From NCBI RefSeq assembly GCF_053078305.1, contig NZ_CP166879.1: a stretch of 64,000 nucleotides of DNA; one strand, given 5' to 3'. The position numbers and the translations under genes are program-made. Position 1 is the first letter of the stretch; every line of letters begins with the position of its first letter. Of this stretch, positions 2,767 through 52,757 are shown in pieces. The notes beneath the pieces were generated by a model, which was not told the origin of the DNA, did not search any database, and saw nothing but the letters and a program-made list of their open reading frames with translations.

Positions 2767-5700
2767 TCACGAAATACTGATACCCGCCGTGGACTTCTTC
2801 ATCACGACAACCAGCAGATCGCTGATACTCGCTGTCGGGTACCATCCATTCACCAGCCAGGCAGACACAGAAAACTCCAGCGTCATATGCCCCCTTCCTG
2901 CAGGCATATCAATCACCCCTGAATACACCTGAGACTCAGCCAGCGCCGTCCTTTCAAAAAGCACCCTGCCGTTACATTTCACCATCAGCCGGCATGATGA
3001 ATAAATATCGTTATGCTCTCTCTCATGTTTAGCGCCGCTGAAAGCCACTGCCGGGATCACAATTTGCCGGTCAAAAGGCTGATCGTCATAAATCCTGACG
3101 GTAATGGTCCCCGATGGCCACCGCTCCGGTGCGCGGGAGTCCCGCGGGAAAGCCTTCCCCACGGTTTTAACAATATCGCCTTCAATCTGGTTGGCAGACA
3201 GTTTTCCAAGTATCCGGCAGTTCTGGTTAATGGTCACATTATTGAGCGTGCCCGAGTTCGCACTGATATGTCCGCTGATGTCCGCATTGCGGGCCGTCAG
3301 CCTGCCCTCCGGCGTCAGGGAGAACGTCGGGGGATTGCCGGACGAGGTGATGCTCACTGCAAACAACCGCTTCAGGAACACATCGTTCATGAACAGCTGA
3401 TTCCCCTGCGCCACAAACAGCGGCGTGGTGTTGCCGTTCTCCGGGTTAATCATCGCGATACGGTCCGCCTGCAGCAGTATATTGCTCAGGGGCTGGCCAT
3501 CAGCATCCTCAATCCCCGCACCAATACCGGCAACATACGGAATGCCGTTTTTCGTTTTCTGCACCTTCAGCATGTACAGCGCAGCCAGGTCGTTATTTGT
3601 GTCTGTCTGCACCCGCTGTATCTGCTGTATGGTGGCACTCTGGTCTTCCAGGGTTTTACTGACCGTCTGCGTGATTTCATTGCGGGTTTCGGTGATGGTG
3701 GTCTTCATCTCCGCCATCTCATCATCAAGCTGGCTGTTATCAATCAGCTCCCACATCCCCTGTGCCAGATGTGTCTTCCCGATTTCTCCTCTGAAAAAGT
3801 CCAGATACCCTTCCGCATCATTGCTGGCCCGGCCACTGGCTTCCACAAACGCAGATTTCCCCACCAGGTTGACGCTGCGCACATAAAACCAGAAATCCTT
3901 CCCCGGCTTAATGTGCGGGCCGGAGACACTCCACTGGCGGCCTGTCCCCAGATAACGGGCAGAGGTTTCCACCTGAGATGTGTCTGCGATTTTTGCCTCC
4001 GAAAACCAGAACTCAAATTGTACCGTCGGGTCATACACCGTAAGATGCGGGACCGCCGTTATCTGATAATACCCCGGCGTCAGCTCAATGCTGTCCGGTG
4101 CTGCCGGGGCGTTAATCCGGAACGTGGTGGTGGCAGGTTCGCCCTGCTGGCCGTAGCTGTTTATCGCCCTGACCGTCAGGGTGTATTCCCCGGGCGGCAG
4201 GCCACTGAAACGGTGCTCCGTATCGGCAGTGATGGCGCTGGTCACCAGGCGGCTGTTTTCACCACTGCCACTGGTCAGGCGCAGACTGAAGCGCACGCCC
4301 TTCACCACCCGCGGCGTGTCCCATTTTGCCAGCGCCATATACTGGCCGTCTGAGGCACTCACCTCCACCGTGAGGTGCTGCACTGCCGGCGGGATGACGC
4401 TGTTCAGTGAACCGGAGAGCGGCTCAAAGCGGGCCCCGTTATCCACGATGGCTTCTTTTTCCGGTACGTGCTGCACTGCCGTGATGGCAAAGGTGCCGTC
4501 CGTGTTTTCCCGGATGGAAACACAGCGGAACAGGCGACGACGCAGTGACGGCAGGGAGAGTCCCCACACACCGTATGTCTCCACGCCATCCGGCAGGGCG
4601 CTGACCTGTATCCGGTCAGGGGCGGGGTGTGCAGTGATGTCCACGCGCACCGGCTTACCGCTGCCGTTAATCAGGTTCACCGTCGATGTACCTGCTTCCG
4701 GCAGTGTCACCTCACGGTCCAGCGTCAGTGTGCGGCTGGCGGCATCGATGGACAGGATGCGTCCACCGGTCAGGGTCCCGGCATAGTCGTTATCACAGAT
4801 TTCAATGATGTCACCGGGCGTGTGCCGCAGCCCCTGTGACCCGAGCATGAAATCCACCGTCTGTGTTTCCAGCAGTTCTGTCTTTATCACCCACAGTCCG
4901 GCACGGTGGGCCTGACCGCGGCTGGTACAGCCGAACGCATCCATCTTCAGCAGATTGCGCCCGTAGCGCAGGATGGCGTCCGGGTCTTCCACCAGTTCCG
5001 TGGAAGTCTGCCAGCCGTTCTGCGGGTCAGTGTAATTCACCTCCACCGCCGTGTGCCGGTCCTTCAGGGCACTGAAGCTGTAGCGGAACCCCACGCCGTT
5101 ATCATCCACCACCACATCGCTGTTGGTGTACGGCCACACCACATCCGACGGACGGTCCTGAACGAACGTCAGCGTCTGGCCGTTCCATACCGGCATACAG
5201 CGCATCGCCGAGCAGAAATCCCCCAGGACATCCCACACCTTACGCTGCTGTGACAGGTACGCATTGAAAGTCATCCGCGGCTCTGTTCCCCCGAAACCAT
5301 CCGGGACCGTCTGGTCACAGTACTGCCCGATGGCATACAGTGCCCACTTGTCCACGTCCGGGGCCCCCAGGCGTTTTCCCATCCCGTAGCGCGGGTGGGT
5401 CAGCATGTCCCACAGGCACCAGGCCGGGTTATTGCTGTATGCCGGTTTCAGACTCCCGTCCCAGATACCGCTGTAGGTGCGTTTTTCCGGGTCATAGTTT
5501 GACGGCACCTGAATGATGCGACCACGGATATGGTAGTTCACCGTCAGCTGCTGGCCACCAAACTGCTCCGCATCCACCTGCAGCCCCACAATGGCCGTGT
5601 TCGGGTAGCACTGTTTCACATCGATGATTTCGGTGTATGACGACCACAGCGTTCTGTTCTGCAGCTGGTCCGTGGTGCTGTCCGCCGTCTCCCTGACCAT

Positions 5701-6240
5701 CCGGATGTTAAAGGGGCGCTCAGGGAGATTATTCAGAATCACCGACGTCAGGTACTGCGAGGTGGTCTTGCCGTTAATGGTGATATCCTTCTCCGTCACC
5801 CAGTGCCCGTTACGCTCAAGCTGAATCAGCAGGCGGACAGAAGAGGGATTACGGTCACCCTTTGAGGTGGTCTCCACCAGTGACTGTACCCCGAAGGTGA
5901 CCCGCAGACGGTCAATGTTCGCTGACGTGATGGTGCGCGTCACCGGCTTTGCCTTCGTCACCTCCACGCCCAGTGCGGTTTCCGCCCCGGAGGACTCAAA
6001 GCCTTCCGGCGGTGTCTGCTCCTGCTCCCCGGCACGCCAGACGGCGGTCACACCGTGTATCACAGGATTACCGTCCGTGTCCGTCAGCGGGGTTTTGTTC
6101 ACCAGAATACTCTGCAGTCCCTTCACCGGGCCTTCCACCGGTCCCTCACCAATGGCATCAATCACGCTCATCATCTGCGTGGATTTGAGATTGTCCTTCG
6201 CCTCACGCGGTGTGTGCCCCTTGCCGCCCCCTTTACCCAC
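2767..6240 (-). CDS. J: Tail tip / host specificity protein J
   Basis: Track ORF 2767..6291; likely GTG start at ~6240 ([17 protein letters not shown]..., GAGGGGGA RBS); length and sequence are lambda J-like throughout. Confidence 0.9.
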
Positions 6241-6284
6241 TCTGTCCCCCTCTCCTGTCTGATGTCTGAATCTGTTTATGCCCA

Positions 6285-6311
6285 AAAACAACAGGCACCC
6301 CGGAGGGTGCC
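6285..6311 (-). terminator. Intrinsic terminator-like hairpin ~45 nt upstream of J start
   Basis: Minus strand CAGGCACCC-TCCG-GGGTGCCTG followed by TTGTTTTT. Confidence 0.45.
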
Positions 6312-6327
6312 TGTGTCATGACGGAAT

Positions 6328-6488
6328 AAAATTTCTGAAATTCTTCACATTTCCGGCAATTGCCTGTAGCCACTATAATGACGCAGCGTTACAGTTTTTT
6401 TGCTCAATAAAAGCAATAATTATCAGACCTCCTTAAGGTGACTATTCGTCTCCCGTCAGTATCCGGCGATATTACGGGAGATTTTTTT
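6328..6488 (+). ncRNA. Candidate small RNA mini-cassette, copy 1 of 3 (promoter-like box to intrinsic terminator)
   Basis: Box AAATTTCTGAAATTCTTCACATTT, TATAAT at ~6374, hairpin CTCCCGT...ACGGGAG plus T7 at ~6449-6488; no convincing ORF. Confidence 0.3.
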
Positions 6489-6566
6489 GCTTCAGCCACA
6501 CCACAACATCCTGCTCATTTACGCCACTGGTACCCTGGCGGTCATCCGTTCTGTAAACCTGCGACA

Positions 6567-6722
6567 GAAAAAGTCTGAATTTCTTCACATTTTCTGTACG
6601 TTCCCGTGGCAGATATCATTCCGGGGCGTTACAGTTTTTTCGGGTCAATAAAAACAAAACTCCTTGAACGTTAATCTTCATCGGTTCTGTCCCGCAGTCT
6701 CCGGACTCTGCGGGATTTTTTT
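6567..6722 (+). ncRNA. Candidate small RNA mini-cassette, copy 2 of 3
   Basis: Same 5' box (AAGTCTGAATTTCTTCACATTTT), TATCAT at ~6614, hairpin CCCGCAG...CTGCGGG plus T-run at ~6690-6722. Confidence 0.3.
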
Positions 6723-6795
6723 ATCCCTTAACCCCGGCATGATGTTTTCTGTCTTCTGCCACAGATACCCGGCAAGCTCCCTGCACCTCTGCAGC

Positions 6796-6950
6796 AAAAA
6801 ATTTCTGAATTTCTTCACATTTTCGCAAAATCCATGTGGCGCTTATAATTTCGCTGCGTTAATGTTTTTCTGCCCAAAAAAATAACTCCATAACGTTAAT
6901 CTTCATCGTTATTTCCCGCAGCTCCGCTAACTCTGCGGGATTTTTTTTAT
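6796..6950 (+). ncRNA. Candidate small RNA mini-cassette, copy 3 of 3
   Basis: Same 5' box, consensus TATAAT at ~6844 with TTCGCA 16 nt upstream, hairpin CCCGCAG...CTGCGGG plus T8 at ~6916-6950, abutting the stop of I. Confidence 0.35.
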
Positions 6951-6952
6951 TT

Positions 6953-7633
6953 TTATCCCCGCCCGATAACCACCACTTTCCCGTCTCCGCCCTCATCACG
7001 GGTGCTGATATCCTGGGATATCCGTCGTGAACCAACCAGCATTTCACCGTAAGGCACCGGCATCGGGTTACCCTGGGCAATCATGTTGTCCAGTGACGAA
7101 AAATACGTGTTCTGTTTACCGTTATCCGTACTTTTATACTCCGGCGTCTTTGCCTTCGGGGCCAGCATCTGAGCCACACCACCCAGTATCATGCTGGCAC
7201 CCAGTGAGAACAGCATCGTGGTGGCAGTCAGCCCTCCGGCACTCAGGGCTGCGCCCCATGCCGCCAGTGTTGCACCACCAGTGAAAAATGACCCGACAAT
7301 CGCTGCAACCCCCAGCACCACCTGAAAAACACCATTTCCCCCGGCTCCGGCCAGTCGCGGCACAATGTGGATGACCGCTCCCTCACCCAGTTGTTCGTGA
7401 AGACGGGCGTACACCGCCTCCGGTGCGGTATCCTCACCGGCAATACGTATCTGATACCAGCCTTCGTTCATCTGACCGCGGAATCCCGGCACCTGCAGCG
7501 ACAGGGCACGGATGGCCTCCGCTGCCGTGTTCACATACAGGCTGATGCGGCGACCAAATCGTTGTAAATCCCCGTGAAGGCAGATGCGGACCAGTGGCGG
7601 TGACGCCAGACAGAATGCGTTCGTCGTTGCCAT
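6953..7633 (-). CDS. I: Tail assembly protein I
   Basis: 226 aa; conserved ...RICLxGDLQRFGRRI...NGKQNTYFSSLDNM... throughout; overlaps end of K as in lambda. Confidence 0.9.
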   Translation of the reverse strand: MATTNAFCLASPPLVRICLHGDLQRFGRRISLYVNTAAEAIRALSLQVPGFRGQMNEGWYQIRIAGEDTAPEAVYARLHEQLGEGAVIHIVPRLAGAGGNGVFQVVLGVAAIVGSFFTGGATLAAWGAALSAGGLTATTMLFSLGASMILGGVAQMLAPKAKTPEYKSTDNGKQNTYFSSLDNMIAQGNPMPVPYGEMLVGSRRISQDISTRDEGGDGKVVVIGRG

Positions 7634-9192: not shown

Positions 9193-10347
9193 TCAGAACT
9201 GATAAGTCATACCCACAGCAACGATATTATCTGTCGCAACACCGGCTTTCCGGGTAAATTCACTTTCATCAATCAGGTTAATTTTATAATCAACATAGGT
9301 GGACATATTCTTGTTAAAGTAATAAGTCGCACCGACATCAATATATTTAACCAGATCCTGATCGCCATGGTTCACACCACCAACCATAACATCCTGTCCG
9401 CGGGACTGAAGGTAGGCAAGGGACGGGCGCAGACCAAAATCAAACTGATACTGAACAACGGCTTCGATATTCTGAGCTTTATCCGCAACACCTTGATCAC
9501 CAAAGGTCGTCATATTCTGGGTTTCAGAATACACTGCTGCCAGATACAGGTTATTGGCATCATATTTAAGACCAGTTCCCCAGAATTCAGCATGTTTACC
9601 TTTTGCCACACTACCTGAGTCAACTGTTTTTTCTCCAACCTTTTTACCTGATTCAGGATCAAGAACATCTGCAGTACCGTTCAACCCCTGAACCTGCTTA
9701 TCGGTACGATCTGACTTGGTATACGCAGCGACAAAACCAAAACCATCAAACTCATAGCTGGCCGAGAAACCATACCCGTCGCCATTAGCCTTCTGAAGGT
9801 CATCACGCTCATTTTTGCCCTGATACTGCGCCGCAAAATTCAGACCATCAACCAGTCCGAAGAAGTCTGTATTACGGTAAGTCAGGACACCGGAAGTTCG
9901 GGCCGTCATAAAGTTATCGGTCTGCGTCCAGCCATCACCACCAAACTCAGGCAGTACGTCAGTATATGATCCGACATCGTAAGCAATACCATAGTTACGT
10001 CCGTAATCAATGGTACCAACATCTGCAAATCTCAGACCTGCAAATGCCAGACGGGTTTTATTTCCCGCGGAACCTTCAGATTCCGTTTTGTTACCAGAGA
10101 ACTGGTATTCCCACTGACCAAATCCGGTCAGTTGATCATTAATCTGCGTTTCGCCTTTAAAGCCGAGACGAGCATAAGTCTGGTCTCCGTCATTACCTTT
10201 ATCATCCGAGAAGTAATGCAGAGCGGTTGCACGCCCGTAAAGATCCAGTTTATTACCATCTTTATTATAAACTTCTGCTGCCTGCGCCCCCGCAGCAAAC
10301 ATCACTGCCACTGCTACAGCAGAAAGTGCCACTGTCATTTTTTTCAT
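9193..10347 (-). CDS. OmpC/OmpF/NmpC-family general porin (prophage moron)
   Basis: 384 aa with signal peptide; [15 protein letters not shown]... and C-terminal ...YVDYKINL...F typical of enterobacterial 16-strand porins; AT-rich upstream region 10348-10545. Confidence 0.9.
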
Positions 10348-31149: not shown

Positions 31150-31960
31150 TGCGGGCTTTTTTTATCCATAAGAAAGCCCCTCCGGAGAGGGGCTGGAGTA
31201 GCGCTATGTACCGTTCATTGCATGATGCCGGGTGCCTCCCGGTGAGTTCAGCCCGGTGCCACCGAACCCGCGTCATTCTCGCTAACGATCATCAGAGACC
31301 ATACCGTACACCAGCCGCCCCTCCGCACAGGGGGATTCATCATGCAGAAATTTTTTAACAAATTCTCAGTCGGGAAGACAACCTTCAACTGACTGAATTG
31401 TGAGCAACATAGCATTTAACGGGGAACCTGTTTTCTGCAGTAAAAAGGCCCACCGGAGCGGACGGGCCTGGAAGGATAGCGGTCATGTGATGCCGGTTTC
31501 CCGGTAACTCAGCACCGGTATCTGAGTCAACGTTTTCTCTACTGGGTCATTTCCGATACGCCCTGCCTGCTGACAGGCTTTCATCACATCTGAAAATATA
31601 GCACCCTGACTGATACTGTAGTACCCAAGGTTCCAGAAACTGTGATGTATCCGGCACAGAAAAGCCCCTCCGGAGAGGGGCTGACGCTGCGTATCTGTAT
31701 CATCATGCGCATGGTGCCGGGTGCCTCCCGGTGAGTTCAGTATCAGCACCTGAACCCGCACAGAAAGGATAAGGGATGTAACCAAACACCTGTCGCTGAT
31801 ATGCCCCTCCGCTCAGGGGGATTCACCATGCCAGTTTCTTTTAACAAACTCCCCGCAAATCAGACAACTGTCAACCGTCTGAATTGTGAGACATTTAAAA
31901 TTTTCGGGGCAACAGGAAGACAATCATCACGACACCGGCAACCAGCGACCGGCACCAGAT
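31150..31960. repeat. Two diverged copies (~490-bp spacing) of a structured non-coding element
   Basis: Shared segments AAGCCCCTCCGGAGAGGGGCT, TGCCGGGTGCCTCCCGGTGAGTTCAG, CCCCTCCGCxCAGGGGGATTCA, CTGAATTGTGAG at ~31174/31664, 31223/31713, 31317/31804, 31394/31879. Confidence 0.6.
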
Positions 31961-32981: not shown

Positions 32982-33058
32982 TGGTGCGTTGTACTGGATT
33001 CGAACCAGTGACCGATTGCTTAGAAGGCAATTGCTCTGTCCGGCTGAGCTAACAACGC
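32982..33058 (-). tRNA. argO: tRNA-Arg (anticodon TCT), argO-like
   Basis: Cloverleaf read by eye; anticodon loop CTTCTAA; GGTTCGAATCC T-arm; CCA end. Confidence 0.8.
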
Positions 33059-33071
33059 AGTGTACAGATAA

Positions 33072-33148
33072 TGGACCGCCATCGAGGACTCGAACCCCGC
33101 GCAACCAGCTTCGAAGGCTGGCGCTCTATCCCGATGAGCTAATGGCGG
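33072..33148 (-). tRNA. argN: tRNA-Arg (anticodon TCG), argN-like
   Basis: Anticodon loop CTTCGAA; GGTTCGAGTCC T-arm. Confidence 0.75.
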
Positions 33149-33155
33149 TATGTGA

Positions 33156-33231
33156 TGGTGGCCCTTGCTGGATTTGAACCAGCGACCTGGCGATTATGAG
33201 TCGCTCGCTCTCACCACTGAGCTAAAGGGCC
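33156..33231 (-). tRNA. ileZ: tRNA with CAT anticodon, ileX-like (tRNA-Ile2), ileZ-like
   Basis: GGCCCTTTAGCTCAGTGG...GACTCATAATCGC...GGTTCAAATCC...CCA; close to E. coli ileX. Confidence 0.75.
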
Positions 33232-38556: not shown

Positions 38557-38712
38557 TTACTCCTCAGGTTCGTAAGCTGTGAAGACAGCGACCTCCGTCT
38601 GGCCGGTTCGGATTCGTACCTCGCAGAGGTCTTTCCTCGTTACCAGTGCCGTCACTATGACGGTTAAACAGATGACGATCAGGGCGATTAACATCGCCTT
38701 TTGCTGCTTCAT
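38557..38712 (-). CDS. hokD: Hok-family type I toxin (HokD/RelF-like)
   Basis: MKQQKAMLIALIVICLTVIVTALVTRKDLCEVRIRTGQTEVAVFTAYEPEE, internal start of track ORF (a mok-like upstream extension). Confidence 0.9.
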   Translation of the reverse strand: MKQQKAMLIALIVICLTVIVTALVTRKDLCEVRIRTGQTEVAVFTAYEPEE

Positions 38713-38983
38713 AGCCTGCTTCTCCTTGCCTTTCGGCACGTAAGAGGCTAACCTACATTTGTGAGACATAGATTGGGCCTCAGATTAATGTTAAGCGTCT
38801 TGCAGGACGCGAAATGTTAACTGGGGCTTTTCTCTATCTGCCTTTTGGTGTTCATGCCTGAGACAGATAGCCTCAAGCACCCGCAGCGATTTTACAGAAA
38901 TAAGTTATTATTTTCTATCTCACCCTTCACTTATCTCATTCCTAGCTATACTCATCGTTCACACAACATTAAAGGGCATAAAA

Positions 38984-45991: not shown

Positions 45992-46249
45992 TTAGCACCA
46001 GTAAAAACAGGTTGCCACTGGTTAATTTACCCTGAAAAGTCAGGGCATAACACGAAAGCGCACGGAGAAGCTCGTCTCTCTGTACTTTGTCGCTAAATTT
46101 AATTCGACCGTGCGCTTCCGGTTGTGGCAATCCGCGAAATGGCGCGGCGGTAAGTATGGCTGGGGTTTCCTCCATTGCTCCAGAAAATGCACCGGGTTGT
46201 CAGGTTGACCATACGCTTAAGTGACAGCCCCGCCACAATACCCATGTGT

Positions 46250-46300
46250 AGTCTTTGGTGGCATCAGTTCTACTCCGTGACTGCTCTGCCACCCTTTTTA
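46250..46300 (+). ncRNA. dicF: DicF-like small RNA
   Basis: ...TGGTGGCATCAGTTCTACTCCGTGACTGCTCTGCCACCC followed by TTTTT; similar to my recollection of E. coli DicF with terminal hairpin. Confidence 0.55.
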
Positions 46301-46788
46301 AAGTGAATTTTGTGATGCGGTGAATGCGGCTAAGCGCACGCGGAACAGTTAAAACCGTAAAGTGGTCTTTTACGGGGCGTAACGGGCATACTTCTGTATT
46401 CCGGCGTTAATTGTTAACTGGTTAACGTCACCTGGAGGCACCAGGCACTGCATCAACAAAGTTCACTTCGGTGATGAAGGGTAAGAGAAAATGTTGAATG
46501 TAGCTATTGAAAACCAGAACGGGTGGAATTATAGTGCACCTGCACCTCATAAAACGGGTGCCGGGCGTGGAAACCCGATGATGATCAACGCGCATAACCG
46601 CGCTCAGGCGGTTTTTTTTATGCGTCAAGCACAGCCACATTCAAATTATGGTGGGGCGTGCAGGGCAGCTGCAAGGCTGGCCGGCTCCGTTGGTCACCGG
46701 TATTTCCACCCCTGTACGTCTCACCACCTTTATGGTCGTGGAAAACCTCGGTGGTGAGTTATTTAAACTGATCAACGAGGCTGCCATC

Positions 46789-51600: not shown

Positions 51601-51690
51601 TGGTGGAGAGAGGGGGATTTGAACCCCCGGTGGAGTTGCCCCCACTCCGGTTTTCGAGACCGGTCCGTTCAGCCGCTCCGGCATCTCTCC
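51601..51690 (-). tRNA. serU: tRNA-Ser (anticodon CGA), serU-like; prophage attachment site
   Basis: GGAGAGATGCCGGAGCGGCTGAACGGACCGGTCTCGAAAACCGG...GGTTCAAATCCCCC...CCA read from minus strand. Confidence 0.85.
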
Positions 51691-52681: not shown

Positions 52682-52757
52682 TCCTCTGTAGTTCAGTCGG
52701 TAGAACGGCGGACTGTTAATCCGTATGTCACTGGTTCGAGTCCAGTCAGAGGAGCCA
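52682..52757 (+). tRNA. asnT: tRNA-Asn (anticodon GTT)
   Basis: TCCTCTGTAGTTCAGTCGGTAGAACGGCGGACTGTTAATCCG...GGTTCGAGTCC...CCA. Confidence 0.9.

What the first reader, a model, noticed from the sequence alone, without database searches (positions are those of the whole stretch)
6292..6952. Three tandem promoter-to-terminator mini-cassettes between tail genes I and J: candidate prophage small-RNA array
In lambda, I and J abut. Here ~660 bp are inserted between them with no convincing ORF. The insert holds three diverged copies of a ~230-bp unit. Each has a conserved 5' box (AAATTTCTGAA[A/T]TTCTTCACATTT), a -10-like hexamer (TATAAT, TATCAT, TATAAT) and a plus-strand hairpin with a T-run (CCCGCAG...CTGCGGG TTTTTTT in copies 2 and 3). 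The units are therefore antisense to the late operon and would give ~95-105-nt transcripts. A further minus-strand terminator-like hairpin sits ~45 nt upstream of the J start, which is unexpected inside a Q-antiterminated operon. My hypothesis is a set of regulatory small RNAs, either acting in trans on host targets or as antisense/convergent-transcription control of J expression. I cannot place them in a named sRNA family from memory.
Basis: partly seen in the sequence, partly recalled or inferred. Interest (0 to 1): 0.75.

Follow-up and report, generated by a model that had tools for sequence, protein, structure and literature searches.

The report
Tandem PasB-type prophage small-RNA genes
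The 660-bp insert between phage tail genes I and J holds three tandem, diverged copies of a small-RNA gene of the known PasB (EPEC) / EcOnc22-24 (EHEC) family; the family is already described, and only the stacking into an array with a divergent first copy is new.

Summary
Window 6292-6952 is non-coding DNA between tail genes J (GTG start at 6240) and I (stop at 6954), both on the minus strand. It holds three plus-strand units. Each has a conserved upstream box, a -10 hexamer and a strong hairpin followed by 7-8 T.

The units are not an unknown class. PasB of EPEC E2348/69 is an 83-nt RNA seen on Northern blots, Hfq-dependent, with 37 RIL-seq interactions. It maps to exactly this I-J spacer in the same antisense orientation and aligns with the units. 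EcOnc22/23/24 of EHEC Sakai (about 85 nt, destabilised without Hfq) fall in the same spacers. Rfam has no model for the family, which explains why the units could not be named.

Units 2 and 3 are clear PasB-family genes and share a 17-nt core (AACGTTAATCTTCATCG). Unit 1 has the family promoter but a divergent body and terminator. That body occurs unannotated in 109 of 5,426 complete E. coli genomes.

Related loci carry one unit (141), two (4), three (3) or four (4). The literature I could search does not mention tandem PasB arrays.

The box is an invariant TCTGA-N6-TCACA dyad, which resembles a CRP site but is not at the canonical spacing. The best reading is independent, Hfq-dependent, trans-acting sRNA genes expressed from the lysogen. 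Interest is moderate.

The parts
2767..6240 (-). Context: tail tip / host-specificity gene J. The likely start is the GTG at 6240, preceded by a GGAGAGGGGG Shine-Dalgarno sequence.
   Evidence: ORF list and sequence reading. A 99.7% identical RefSeq locus is annotated as phage attachment tail tip protein J.
6283..6314 (-). Terminator-like hairpin on the tail-operon sense strand (ACAGGCACCC-TCCG-GGGTGCCTGT, then TGTTTTT). It lies between the first sRNA promoter and J.
   Evidence: Found by the scan. Of 201 related units (internal array units included), 110 have it directly upstream. There is one compensatory variant (C-G to U-A) and a U.G intermediate. L032-type loci carry a different, non-homologous hairpin at the same place.
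6329..6352 (+). Unit 1 upstream box. The dyad TCTGA-AATTCT-TCACA is at 6334-6349.
6374..6379 (+). Unit 1 -10 hexamer, TATAAT.
   Evidence: aligned with the PasB promoter in A1
6386..6488 (+). Unit 1 predicted transcript. It is about 103 nt from a start 7 nt after the -10, or about 88 nt if the 5' end corresponds to that of PasB, at about 6401. This is the divergent 'type B' body: core CCUCCUUAAGGUGACUAUUCGU, terminator 6449-6481, T-run 6482-6488.
   Evidence: Fold. The same body is found in 109 of 5,426 E. coli genomes, unannotated. It is 66% identical to PasB.
6569..6592 (+). Unit 2 upstream box. The dyad TCTGA-ATTTCT-TCACA is at 6574-6589.
6614..6619 (+). Unit 2 -10 hexamer, TATCAT.
6626..6722 (+). 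Unit 2 predicted transcript, with a PasB-type body. The core AACGUUAAUCUUCAUCG is at 6667-6683, the terminator at 6690-6715 and the T-run at 6716-6722.
   Evidence: D5; 76% identical to PasB, 80% to the Sakai homologue
6799..6822 (+). Unit 3 upstream box. The dyad TCTGA-ATTTCT-TCACA is at 6804-6819.
6822..6849 (+). Unit 3 sigma-70-like promoter: TTCGCA, 16-nt spacer, TATAAT (10 of 12 matches).
6856..6948 (+). Unit 3 predicted transcript, with a PasB-type body. The core AACGUUAAUCUUCAUCG is at 6892-6908, the terminator at 6914-6940 and the T-run at 6941-6948.
   Evidence: 90% identical to the Sakai Sp15 homologue that I equate with EcOnc22
6954..7535 (-). Context: tail assembly gene I. Its stop codon lies about 5 nt from the unit 3 T-run.
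   Evidence: RefSeq annotation of the 99.7% identical locus, transferred by coordinate offset; ORF list

Best explanation
The insert is a tandem array of three independently transcribed small-RNA genes of the PasB / EcOnc22-24 family. These are sRNA 'morons': genes with their own promoter and terminator lodged in the I-J spacer of a lambdoid prophage and pointing against the tail operon.

**Shown here**
- The position and orientation match those of PasB.
- The sequence is homologous to PasB and its relatives.
- Each unit keeps an intact box, -10 hexamer and intrinsic terminator.

**Shown by others for homologues**
- They give an 83-85 nt transcript whose stability depends on Hfq.
- On Hfq they form chimeras with many mRNAs from elsewhere in the genome.

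**Inferred**
- In a lysogen the late operon is silent, and host RNA polymerase fires each unit.
- The RNA ends at its own terminator, binds Hfq through the terminator U-tail, and pairs in trans with host and virulence mRNAs. Pairing would use the conserved single-stranded stretch upstream of the terminator (AACUCCWUAACGUUAAUCUUC, which contains an anti-Shine-Dalgarno CUCC).
- Units 2 and 3 share the same core, so they mainly raise dosage. Unit 1 has a different core and probably a different target set.
- The invariant TCTGA-N6-TCACA dyad upstream of every promoter is probably the binding site of one host transcription factor that co-regulates all units. CRP is the leading candidate, held weakly.
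- The array probably arose by unequal recombination between cassettes that occur singly in other phages.
For: **Identity with PasB**
- PasB's published coordinates (NC_011601 1466261-1466343, minus strand) lie between the tail assembly gene and gpJ, antisense to both.
- The reverse complement of the PasB Northern probe nearly matches the unit 3 terminator.
- Alignment A1 shows a shared box, -10, core and terminator.

**Experimental support for homologues**
- PasB falls 6.8 log2-fold in the hfq mutant and has 37 RIL-seq interactions. Its partners include ler, bfpB, bfpI, perB, ftsZ, hflX and an intergenic RNA next to pasA with 774 chimeras.
- EcOnc22/23/24 are about 85 nt, destabilised in the hfq mutant, on the plus strand, in prophages Sp15, Sp14 and Sp11. 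They fall in the J-I spacers of Sakai.
- Correcting the old Sakai coordinates by about +128 to +146 places the Hfq peak on the PasB-like body. I calibrated the offset on AgvB1 and checked it on STnc100 in Sp17.

**Conservation**
- Across 28 units that are less than 92% identical, the best conserved blocks are the box, part of the -10, the core and the terminator stem.
- In units selected only by their body, 52 of 53 keep CTGA-N6-TCACA while the 6-nt spacer varies.

**Structure and coding**
- The terminators fold strongly.
- There is no conserved ORF.

**Array sizes**
- Related loci with complete flanks carry 1, 2, 3 or 4 units in 141, 4, 3 and 4 cases respectively.
Against: - There are no expression data for this strain or for any array.
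- Unit 2 has a weaker -10 (TATCAT) and no recognisable -35.
- Unit 1's body is only 60-66% identical to known members, and BLAST does not link it to them, so its expression and its Hfq dependence are extrapolated.
- The reported PasB 5' end lies 22 nt downstream of the TATAAT. Either the RNA is processed or the promoter assignment is slightly off.
- No PasB target has been validated individually, and no seed has been mapped. My own search for complementarity with PasB's top RIL-seq partner was not significant.
- The CRP-like dyad would be centred near -44.5, not at the class II position of -41.5.
Confidence: 0.85

Rival explanations
1. The units act mainly in cis on the phage. Their RNAs are perfectly complementary to the I-J intercistronic part of the late transcript, and their promoters fire head-on against late transcription. 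They could therefore tune expression of J and the downstream tail-fibre genes by antisense pairing, RNase III cleavage or transcriptional interference.
For: The orientation is always antisense to the tail operon, and the position is fixed between I and J in every locus examined. A sense-strand terminator-like hairpin always sits between the cassette and J. It is replaced by a non-homologous hairpin in L032-type loci, which suggests that transcription into J is managed.
Against: PasB is abundant in uninduced lysogens, where the late operon is silent, and its Hfq partners are mRNAs from elsewhere in the genome. The best conserved body segment is a short core typical of trans-acting sRNAs, not the whole antisense stretch. 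Lambda itself needs no such element, because I and J abut there (established knowledge). Cis and trans roles could coexist.
Confidence: 0.15
2. Only the I-proximal unit 3 is a working gene. Units 1 and 2 are decaying duplicates or recombination debris with no function.
For: Units differ by 21-39%. Unit 2 has a weaker -10. 141 of 152 related loci with complete flanks manage with a single unit.
Against: All three units keep the invariant dyad, a -10 with A2 and T6, and a strong terminator with a T7-8 run. Each unit type also occurs as the sole or the J-proximal unit in other phages. The unit 1 body is conserved at 80% identity or more across 107 of the 109 genomes that carry it. This argues for selection rather than decay.
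Confidence: 0.12
3. The functional products lie on the minus strand. On this reading, the hairpins and boxes are processing, stability or termination signals within the late mRNA, or they encode a short peptide.
For: The reverse complement of the core reads AAGGAG, which is Shine-Dalgarno-like. There is a weak cmscan hit to STnc560 on the minus strand at 6260-6413, with E = 0.33.
Against: The STnc560 score is 18.9 bits against a gathering threshold of 55, and blastn finds no Salmonella phage relative. Minus-strand ORFs behind the AAGGAG differ in length, frame and stop codons between homologues (and sequence reading). The hairpins have T-runs only on the plus strand, apart from the J-proximal one. 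The Northern probe and the RIL-seq strand for PasB are antisense to the tail genes.
Confidence: 0.03

Closest known systems
PasB (pathogenicity-associated sRNA B) of EPEC O127:H6 E2348/69, prophage PP6. Sources: Pearl Mizrahi et al. 2021, PMC8550237; Zhu, Shabalina and Storz 2026 preprint, 10.64898/2026.05.13.724894.
   Same: It lies in the same I-J spacer, in the same antisense orientation. It has the same upstream box and TATAAT, a homologous core, and the same CCCGCAG...CTGCGGG-U7 terminator. Units 2 and 3 are 76% identical to it.
   Different: PasB is described as a single gene per prophage. Here three units are stacked. Unit 1 has a different core and terminator, and BLAST does not link it to PasB. 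The preprint does not mention PasB's promoter, CRP, or tandem copies of PasB; its only uses of 'tandem' are to rule out tandem duplication for PasA and PasD.
EcOnc22 / EcOnc23 / EcOnc24 of EHEC O157:H7 Sakai, prophages Sp15, Sp14 and Sp11. Source: Tree et al. 2014, PMC4104026, Table S2.
   Same: They are plus-strand Hfq-CRAC peaks in the J-I spacers, about 85 nt on Northern blots and destabilised without Hfq. The Sp15 unit is 90% identical to unit 3.
   Different: There is a single unit per prophage. Equating them with PasB is my inference. It rests on synteny and a calibrated coordinate offset. Pearl Mizrahi's Table S6 lists no EHEC homologue for PasB.
Other prophage sRNA morons: the anti-sRNAs AgvB and AsxR, PasA/PasC, PasD/STnc100, DicF.
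   Same: They are short Hfq-binding RNAs with their own promoter and terminator, carried by lambdoid prophages and expressed in lysogens.
   Different: They differ in sequence and in position (downstream of PR' or in the immunity region). The Rfam models for AgvB, AsxR, STnc100 and DicF do not hit 5800-7500, although STnc100 and DicF hit elsewhere in the window.
Tandem multicopy sRNA families: OmrA/OmrB, PrrF1/PrrF2, Listeria LhrC1-4 (recalled from my own knowledge).
   Same: They are adjacent paralogous sRNA genes, each with its own promoter under a common regulator, with partly shared and partly diverged pairing regions.
   Different: They are chromosomal core-genome loci, not phage cassettes, and are unrelated in sequence. 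I did not test this resemblance.

Membership tests
PasB / EcOnc22-24 sRNA family | The gene lies in the I-J spacer of a lambdoid prophage, antisense to the tail operon. | tested here: met
   Window: I and J are on the minus strand and the units on the plus strand. PasB and the Sakai loci have the same layout.
PasB / EcOnc22-24 sRNA family | The sRNA body is homologous in sequence to PasB (units 2 and 3). | tested here: met
   nhmmer E = 2e-33 and 2e-37. Identity is 76% to PasB and 80-90% to the Sakai unit. See also alignment A1.
PasB / EcOnc22-24 sRNA family | The sRNA body is homologous in sequence to PasB (unit 1). | tested here: inconclusive
   The promoter half is clearly homologous: 93.8% identity to Sakai over query positions 1-146 (window 6255-6400). 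The body is only 60-66% identical. blastn with the body alone finds 109 genomes, not the roughly 800 that carry PasB-type units.
PasB / EcOnc22-24 sRNA family | There is a 3' Rho-independent terminator with a U tract. | tested here: met
   All three units fold into one. One compensatory stem variant occurs in L024: CCCACAG/CTGTGGG.
PasB / EcOnc22-24 sRNA family | A transcript of about 83-85 nt accumulates in an Hfq-dependent way and forms Hfq-mediated chimeras with mRNAs. | not testable with these tools
   Known only for the homologues in E2348/69 and Sakai.
Any curated Rfam family | The covariance-model score reaches the gathering threshold. | tested here: not met
   Nothing in 5800-7500 has E below 0.19. 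The best hit is STnc560 at 18.9 bits against a threshold of 55. The gathering search of the whole window gives no hit in this region.
Anti-sRNA class (AgvB/AsxR) | RNAs of 51-60 nt with a shared 42-nt 3' region, encoded downstream of PR'. | tested here: not met
   The Rfam AgvB and AsxR models do not hit the region. The location is different, and the predicted length is 78-103 nt.
CRP-activated promoter (class II) | A TGTGA-N6-TCACA dyad is present. | tested here: met
   9 of 10 core positions match in all three units. The two half-sites are invariant while the spacer varies in body-selected homologues. The CRP consensus itself is recalled from my own knowledge.
CRP-activated promoter (class II) | The dyad is centred near -41.5 relative to the transcription start. 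| tested here: not met
   There are 24 nt between TCACA and the -10 hexamer. This puts the centre at about -44.5, or -42.5 at best (sequence). No transcription start has been mapped.
CRP-activated promoter (class II) | CRP binds the site and expression depends on cAMP. | not testable with these tools
   The only support is circumstantial. PasB is higher in overnight LB cultures than in DMEM, the opposite of CRP-repressed Spf. That comparison is confounded by growth phase and oxygen.
Phage 'moron' | An extra gene with its own promoter and terminator is inserted between two genes that are adjacent in related phages. | tested here: met
   Each unit has a promoter and a terminator. I and J abut in lambda (established knowledge).

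The most novel reading that the evidence does not exclude
The I-J spacer of lambdoid prophages may be a cassette-stacking site for PasB-type sRNA genes. The genes share one promoter controlled by a host factor (the invariant TCTGA-N6-TCACA dyad, possibly a CRP site) but carry at least three different pairing cores. Recombination would assemble them into arrays of one to four. Lysogens would then gain a co-regulated, combinatorial set of regulatory RNAs. The unit 1 type would be an undescribed sRNA with its own targets.
Probability: 0.3. Interest if true: 0.55.

Novelty: new variant of a known kind. Interest (0 to 1): 0.4.

Why it matters
PasB-type RNAs contact virulence mRNAs in EPEC, including ler, bfp and per. 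Their homologues sit in Stx-converting phages of EHEC.

Some STEC prophages carry two to four stacked copies with different pairing cores. If those copies are expressed, the dose and target range of this regulator differ between strains in a way that current BLAST-based surveys miss, because the unit 1 type is invisible to a PasB query.

The arrays would also be a case of tandem multiplication of a Pas-family sRNA. The recent survey ruled out tandem duplication for PasA and PasD and does not address it for PasB.

The invariant dyad gives a concrete, testable handle on what signal switches the family on.

Beyond that, the result is mostly a clean identification. The candidate sRNA array belongs to a family already validated by experiment.

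Tried and rejected
1. **Rfam.** There is no significant family. The STnc560 minus-strand hit (E = 0.33) is treated as chance, and blastn finds no Salmonella phage relative.
2. **AgvB/AsxR.** This was my first recollection. These RNAs sit downstream of PR', not between I and J, and their models do not hit the region.
3. **Genome-contig scan.** I used the terminator pattern CCCGCAG-N-CTGCGGGATTTTTT. Only two E. albertii contigs hold real units, so I did not establish the taxonomic range myself.
4. **Whole-spacer duplication.** I checked whether the inter-unit spacers are remnants of the 3' end of I and the J leader. Local alignments are no better than shuffles. The apparent alignment of the hairpin region in A1 is forced.
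5. **Consensus structure.** RNAalifold on all unit types failed because MAFFT misaligns the type B terminator; only 3 pairs were predicted. I relied on single-sequence folds instead.
6. **Seed mapping.** I compared PasB with its top RIL-seq partner. RNAduplex energies are no better than for shuffled sRNA. The longest Watson-Crick match is 8 nt, reached by 49 of 500 shuffles.
7. **Other readings of the box.** I considered sigma-E, sigma-32, sigma-54, TyrR, CpxR, OmpR and RcsB, all by eye and from memory. None fits the pattern of two invariant pentamers with a variable 6-nt spacer as well as a CRP-family dyad. TTCACA cannot be the -35, because it lies 24 nt from the -10.
8. **Short-peptide coding.** There is no conserved ORF.
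Full report
**1. What is in the sequence**

Window 6241-6953 is the spacer between two minus-strand tail genes. J starts at the GTG at 6240. Gene I has its stop at 6954-6956. In a RefSeq chromosome that is 99.7% identical over window 6250-6990 (E. coli S19-141), the neighbours are annotated as gpJ, tail assembly protein, C40 peptidase (K) and minor tail protein L.

The repeat finder returns three direct copies of an 81-nt core at 6319, 6559 and 6789. They are 69-73% identical, with spacings of 240 and 230. A profile HMM built from related units hits the 64-kb window three times and nowhere else, with E = 1e-25, 2e-33 and 2e-37.

Each unit reads, on the plus strand, in this order:
- an A/T-rich box containing TCTGA-N6-TCACA (exact matches at 6334, 6574 and 6804; chance expectation 0.17);
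- 24 nt further on, a -10 hexamer: TATAAT 6374-6379, TATCAT 6614-6619, TATAAT 6844-6849;
- a conserved GCGTTA;
- a U-rich then A-rich stretch;
- a conserved core;
- a GC-rich hairpin followed by T7-T8.

No ORF is conserved among homologous units. The longest is 16-39 codons, on varying strands and frames.

**2. What it is**

Rfam 15 has nothing for this region. The literature does.

Pearl Mizrahi et al. 2021 (PMC8550237, Table S6) list PasB at NC_011601 1466343-1466261 on the minus strand. It is 83 nt, lies in prophage PP6, and was probed with AATCCCGCAGTGATCGCGGAGCT. In the RefSeq record these coordinates lie between the tail assembly gene (end 1466255) and gpJ (start 1466496), antisense to both.

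The reverse complement of the probe is AGCTCCGCGATCACTGCGGGATT. It differs at only 4 positions from unit 3's AGCTCCGCTAACTCTGCGGGATT. The whole PasB locus aligns with the window units: box, TATAAT, GCGTTA, core and terminator.

PasB was confirmed by Northern blot. It drops 6.8 log2-fold in the hfq mutant and has 37 RIL-seq interactions. Partners I could read from Table S3 include ler, bfpB, bfpI, perB, ftsZ, galE, glk, gshA, hflX, ffh and an intergenic RNA next to pasA (774 chimeras).

In EHEC Sakai, Tree et al. 2014 (PMC4104026, Table S2) list EcOnc22, 23 and 24. They are on the plus strand in prophages Sp15, Sp14 and Sp11, run at about 85 nt on Northern blots, and are destabilised in the hfq mutant. 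In NC_002695.2 these coordinates lie at the J-I spacers of those three prophages.

The 2014 coordinates refer to an older sequence version. I calibrated the offset with AgvB1: old peak 1941783-1941835, Rfam hit now at 1941920-1941981. I checked it with STnc100/EcOnc06 in Sp17. Both give an offset of about +128 to +146.

With that offset the EcOnc22 Hfq peak falls inside the PasB-like transcript of Sp15, which is predicted at 2902836-2902927. Without it the peak would lie upstream of the promoter. Equating EcOnc22-24 with PasB is my inference. Pearl Mizrahi's table lists no EHEC homologue for PasB.

**3. The three units compared**

| Unit | Identity to PasB | Identity to Sakai Sp15 unit |
|---|---|---|
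| 1 | 66% | 60% |
| 2 | 76% | 80% |
| 3 | 76% | 90% |

These figures are for the sRNA bodies taken from the PasB-equivalent 5' end.

Units 2 and 3 share an identical 17-nt core, AACGTTAATCTTCATCG (D5). They also share the CCCGCAG...CTGCGGG stem, with different loops.

Unit 1 has a promoter half that is 93.8% identical to the Sakai locus over the first 146 nt of the query (window 6255-6400). Its body is different: CCUCCUUAAGGUGACUAUUCGU, with terminator CTCCCGT...ACGGGAG.

A sensitive blastn with the unit 1 body alone finds 109 of 5,426 complete E. coli genomes, always unannotated. It does not find the roughly 800 genomes that carry PasB-type units. A PasB BLAST survey would therefore miss this type.

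Four-unit arrays contain a third body type: AACGCCAACAGGUUAGUCAACAUCGUU.

**4. Distribution**

- Megablast with the 741-bp region hits 807 of 5,426 complete E. coli genomes. Of these, 83 cover at least 80% of the three-unit query.
- Among phage records, 96 match by megablast and 147 by blastn. Most are Stx-converting phages, and none annotates an RNA there.
- In IMG/VR contigs and the other loci fetched, those with complete flanks carry one unit (141), two (4), three (3) or four (4).
- Every unit type in the window also occurs in other loci, as the only unit, as the J-proximal unit, or in a related variant. The array therefore looks like a concatenation of cassettes rather than in-place divergence.
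- The inter-unit spacers show no significant similarity to the end of I or to the J leader.

The Zhu, Shabalina and Storz preprint (10.64898/2026.05.13.724894) describes PasB as embedded in a phage structural operon with conserved synteny. It names NC_049945, which is one of my hits. It argues that multiple PasA and PasD copies come from repeated acquisition, not tandem duplication. It does not mention PasB arrays, promoters or CRP.

**5. The promoter box**

Across 28 units that are less than 92% identical, the box is the most conserved block of the whole unit.

To avoid circularity, I also selected units only by body and terminator. Of these, 52 of 53 carry CTGA-N6-TCACA. The one exception has TATGA. 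The six spacer positions vary: ATATCT, ATTTCT, AACTCT, GTTTAT, AATTCT, ATTTCC.

Two invariant pentamers around a free 6-nt spacer are the signature of a dimeric transcription factor. TCTGA-N6-TCACATTT matches 9 of 10 core positions of the CRP consensus TGTGA-N6-TCACA, a consensus I recall from my own knowledge.

- Against CRP: the dyad centre lies 32.5 nt upstream of the -10, which is about -44.5. The class II position is -41.5.
- Weakly for CRP: PasB is higher in overnight static LB cultures than in DMEM, the opposite of CRP-repressed Spf. Growth phase and oxygen differ as well, so this comparison is confounded.

I hold the CRP reading at roughly one in three. I hold the more general claim, that one host factor co-regulates all units, more firmly.

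**6. The hairpin before J**

The minus-strand hairpin at 6314-6291, followed by TGTTTTT, is real. Of 201 related units (internal array units included), 110 have it directly upstream. Variants show a compensatory change (CAGGCACCC/GGGTGCCTG to CAGGCATCC/GGATGCCTG) and a U.G intermediate.

The abundant L032-type loci have a non-homologous hairpin at the same place: CCCCGGTATC...GATACCGGGG, with T-runs on both sides. The fact that one hairpin is replaced by another at the same position suggests that stopping non-antiterminated transcription before J matters.

One possibility is that it stops divergent or read-through transcripts in the lysogen. I could not test this, and it remains unexplained.

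**7. Mechanism**

*Shown here:* position, orientation, homology, intact promoter-like and terminator elements in all three units, and absence of coding potential.

*Shown by others for homologues:* expression in lysogens, a size of 83-85 nt, Hfq dependence, and trans partners on Hfq.

*Inferred:*
- Each unit is fired by host RNA polymerase while the late operon is silent.
- The RNA binds Hfq and pairs in trans through the conserved core. The core contains an anti-Shine-Dalgarno CUCC.
- Units 2 and 3 add dosage, and unit 1 adds a new specificity.
- The reported PasB 5' end lies 22 nt downstream of the TATAAT, within a conserved U-run. This suggests processing of a primary transcript of about 98 nt.

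A cis-antisense effect on the I-J part of the late mRNA, or promoter interference during lytic growth, is possible but unsupported.

**8. Verdict**

The family is already known. The new points are the tandem arrays of one to four units, the divergent unit 1 type and the invariant dyad. Interest is moderate.

Noticed in passing
window 31164-31374 and 31654-31860 (-): There are two STnc100 sRNA copies in tandem about 490 nt apart, scoring 168 and 135 bits. STnc100 is the family that the 2026 preprint links to PasD. This is a second case of tandem prophage sRNA genes in the same window.
   Followed up: no
window 46243-46731 (+): DicF, isrK and C4 antisense RNA hits lie within 500 nt of each other. 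This is presumably the immunity or early region of a prophage in the window.
   Followed up: no
window 38707-38882 (-): There is a sok antitoxin RNA hit at 121 bits, which indicates a hok/sok-type toxin-antitoxin locus.
   Followed up: no
window 32985-33231 (-), 51604-51690 (-), 52682-52754 (+): There are five tRNA hits, three of them clustered at 32985-33231.
   Followed up: no
window 9193-10347 (-): A 384-aa ORF is lodged among the tail genes, upstream of L. The 99.7% identical RefSeq locus annotates it as porin OmpC. It looks like a porin moron inside the tail operon.
   Followed up: partly
window 6283-6314 (-); L032 6640-6700: A terminator-like hairpin on the tail-operon sense strand lies just before J and shows a compensatory variant. 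Other phages carry a non-homologous, bidirectional hairpin at the same position. Its role inside a Q-antiterminated operon is unexplained.
   Followed up: partly
window 6497-6512 (+): The spacer between units 1 and 2 contains CCACACCACAACATCC. This is a C/A-rich CACAACA motif like the GcvB R1 target consensus mimicked by AgvB. It lies downstream of the unit 1 terminator, so it would be transcribed only by read-through.
   Followed up: no
window 6723-6800 (+); L039 7760-7833 and 8213-8285: A spacer of about 75 nt recurs after PasB-type units in three- and four-unit arrays: ATCCCTTAA.CCCGGC.TGAT..TTCTGTC.TCTGCCAC.GATA.CC. It has no similarity to the end of I or to the J leader. Its origin is unknown.
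   Followed up: partly
L124, L125, L126 (Sakai NC_002695.2): The coordinates in Tree et al. 2014 Table S2 are offset by about +128 to +146 from the current Sakai RefSeq version, at least between 1.94 and 3.49 Mb. Anyone mapping EcOnc RNAs onto NC_002695.2 needs this correction.
   Followed up: yes
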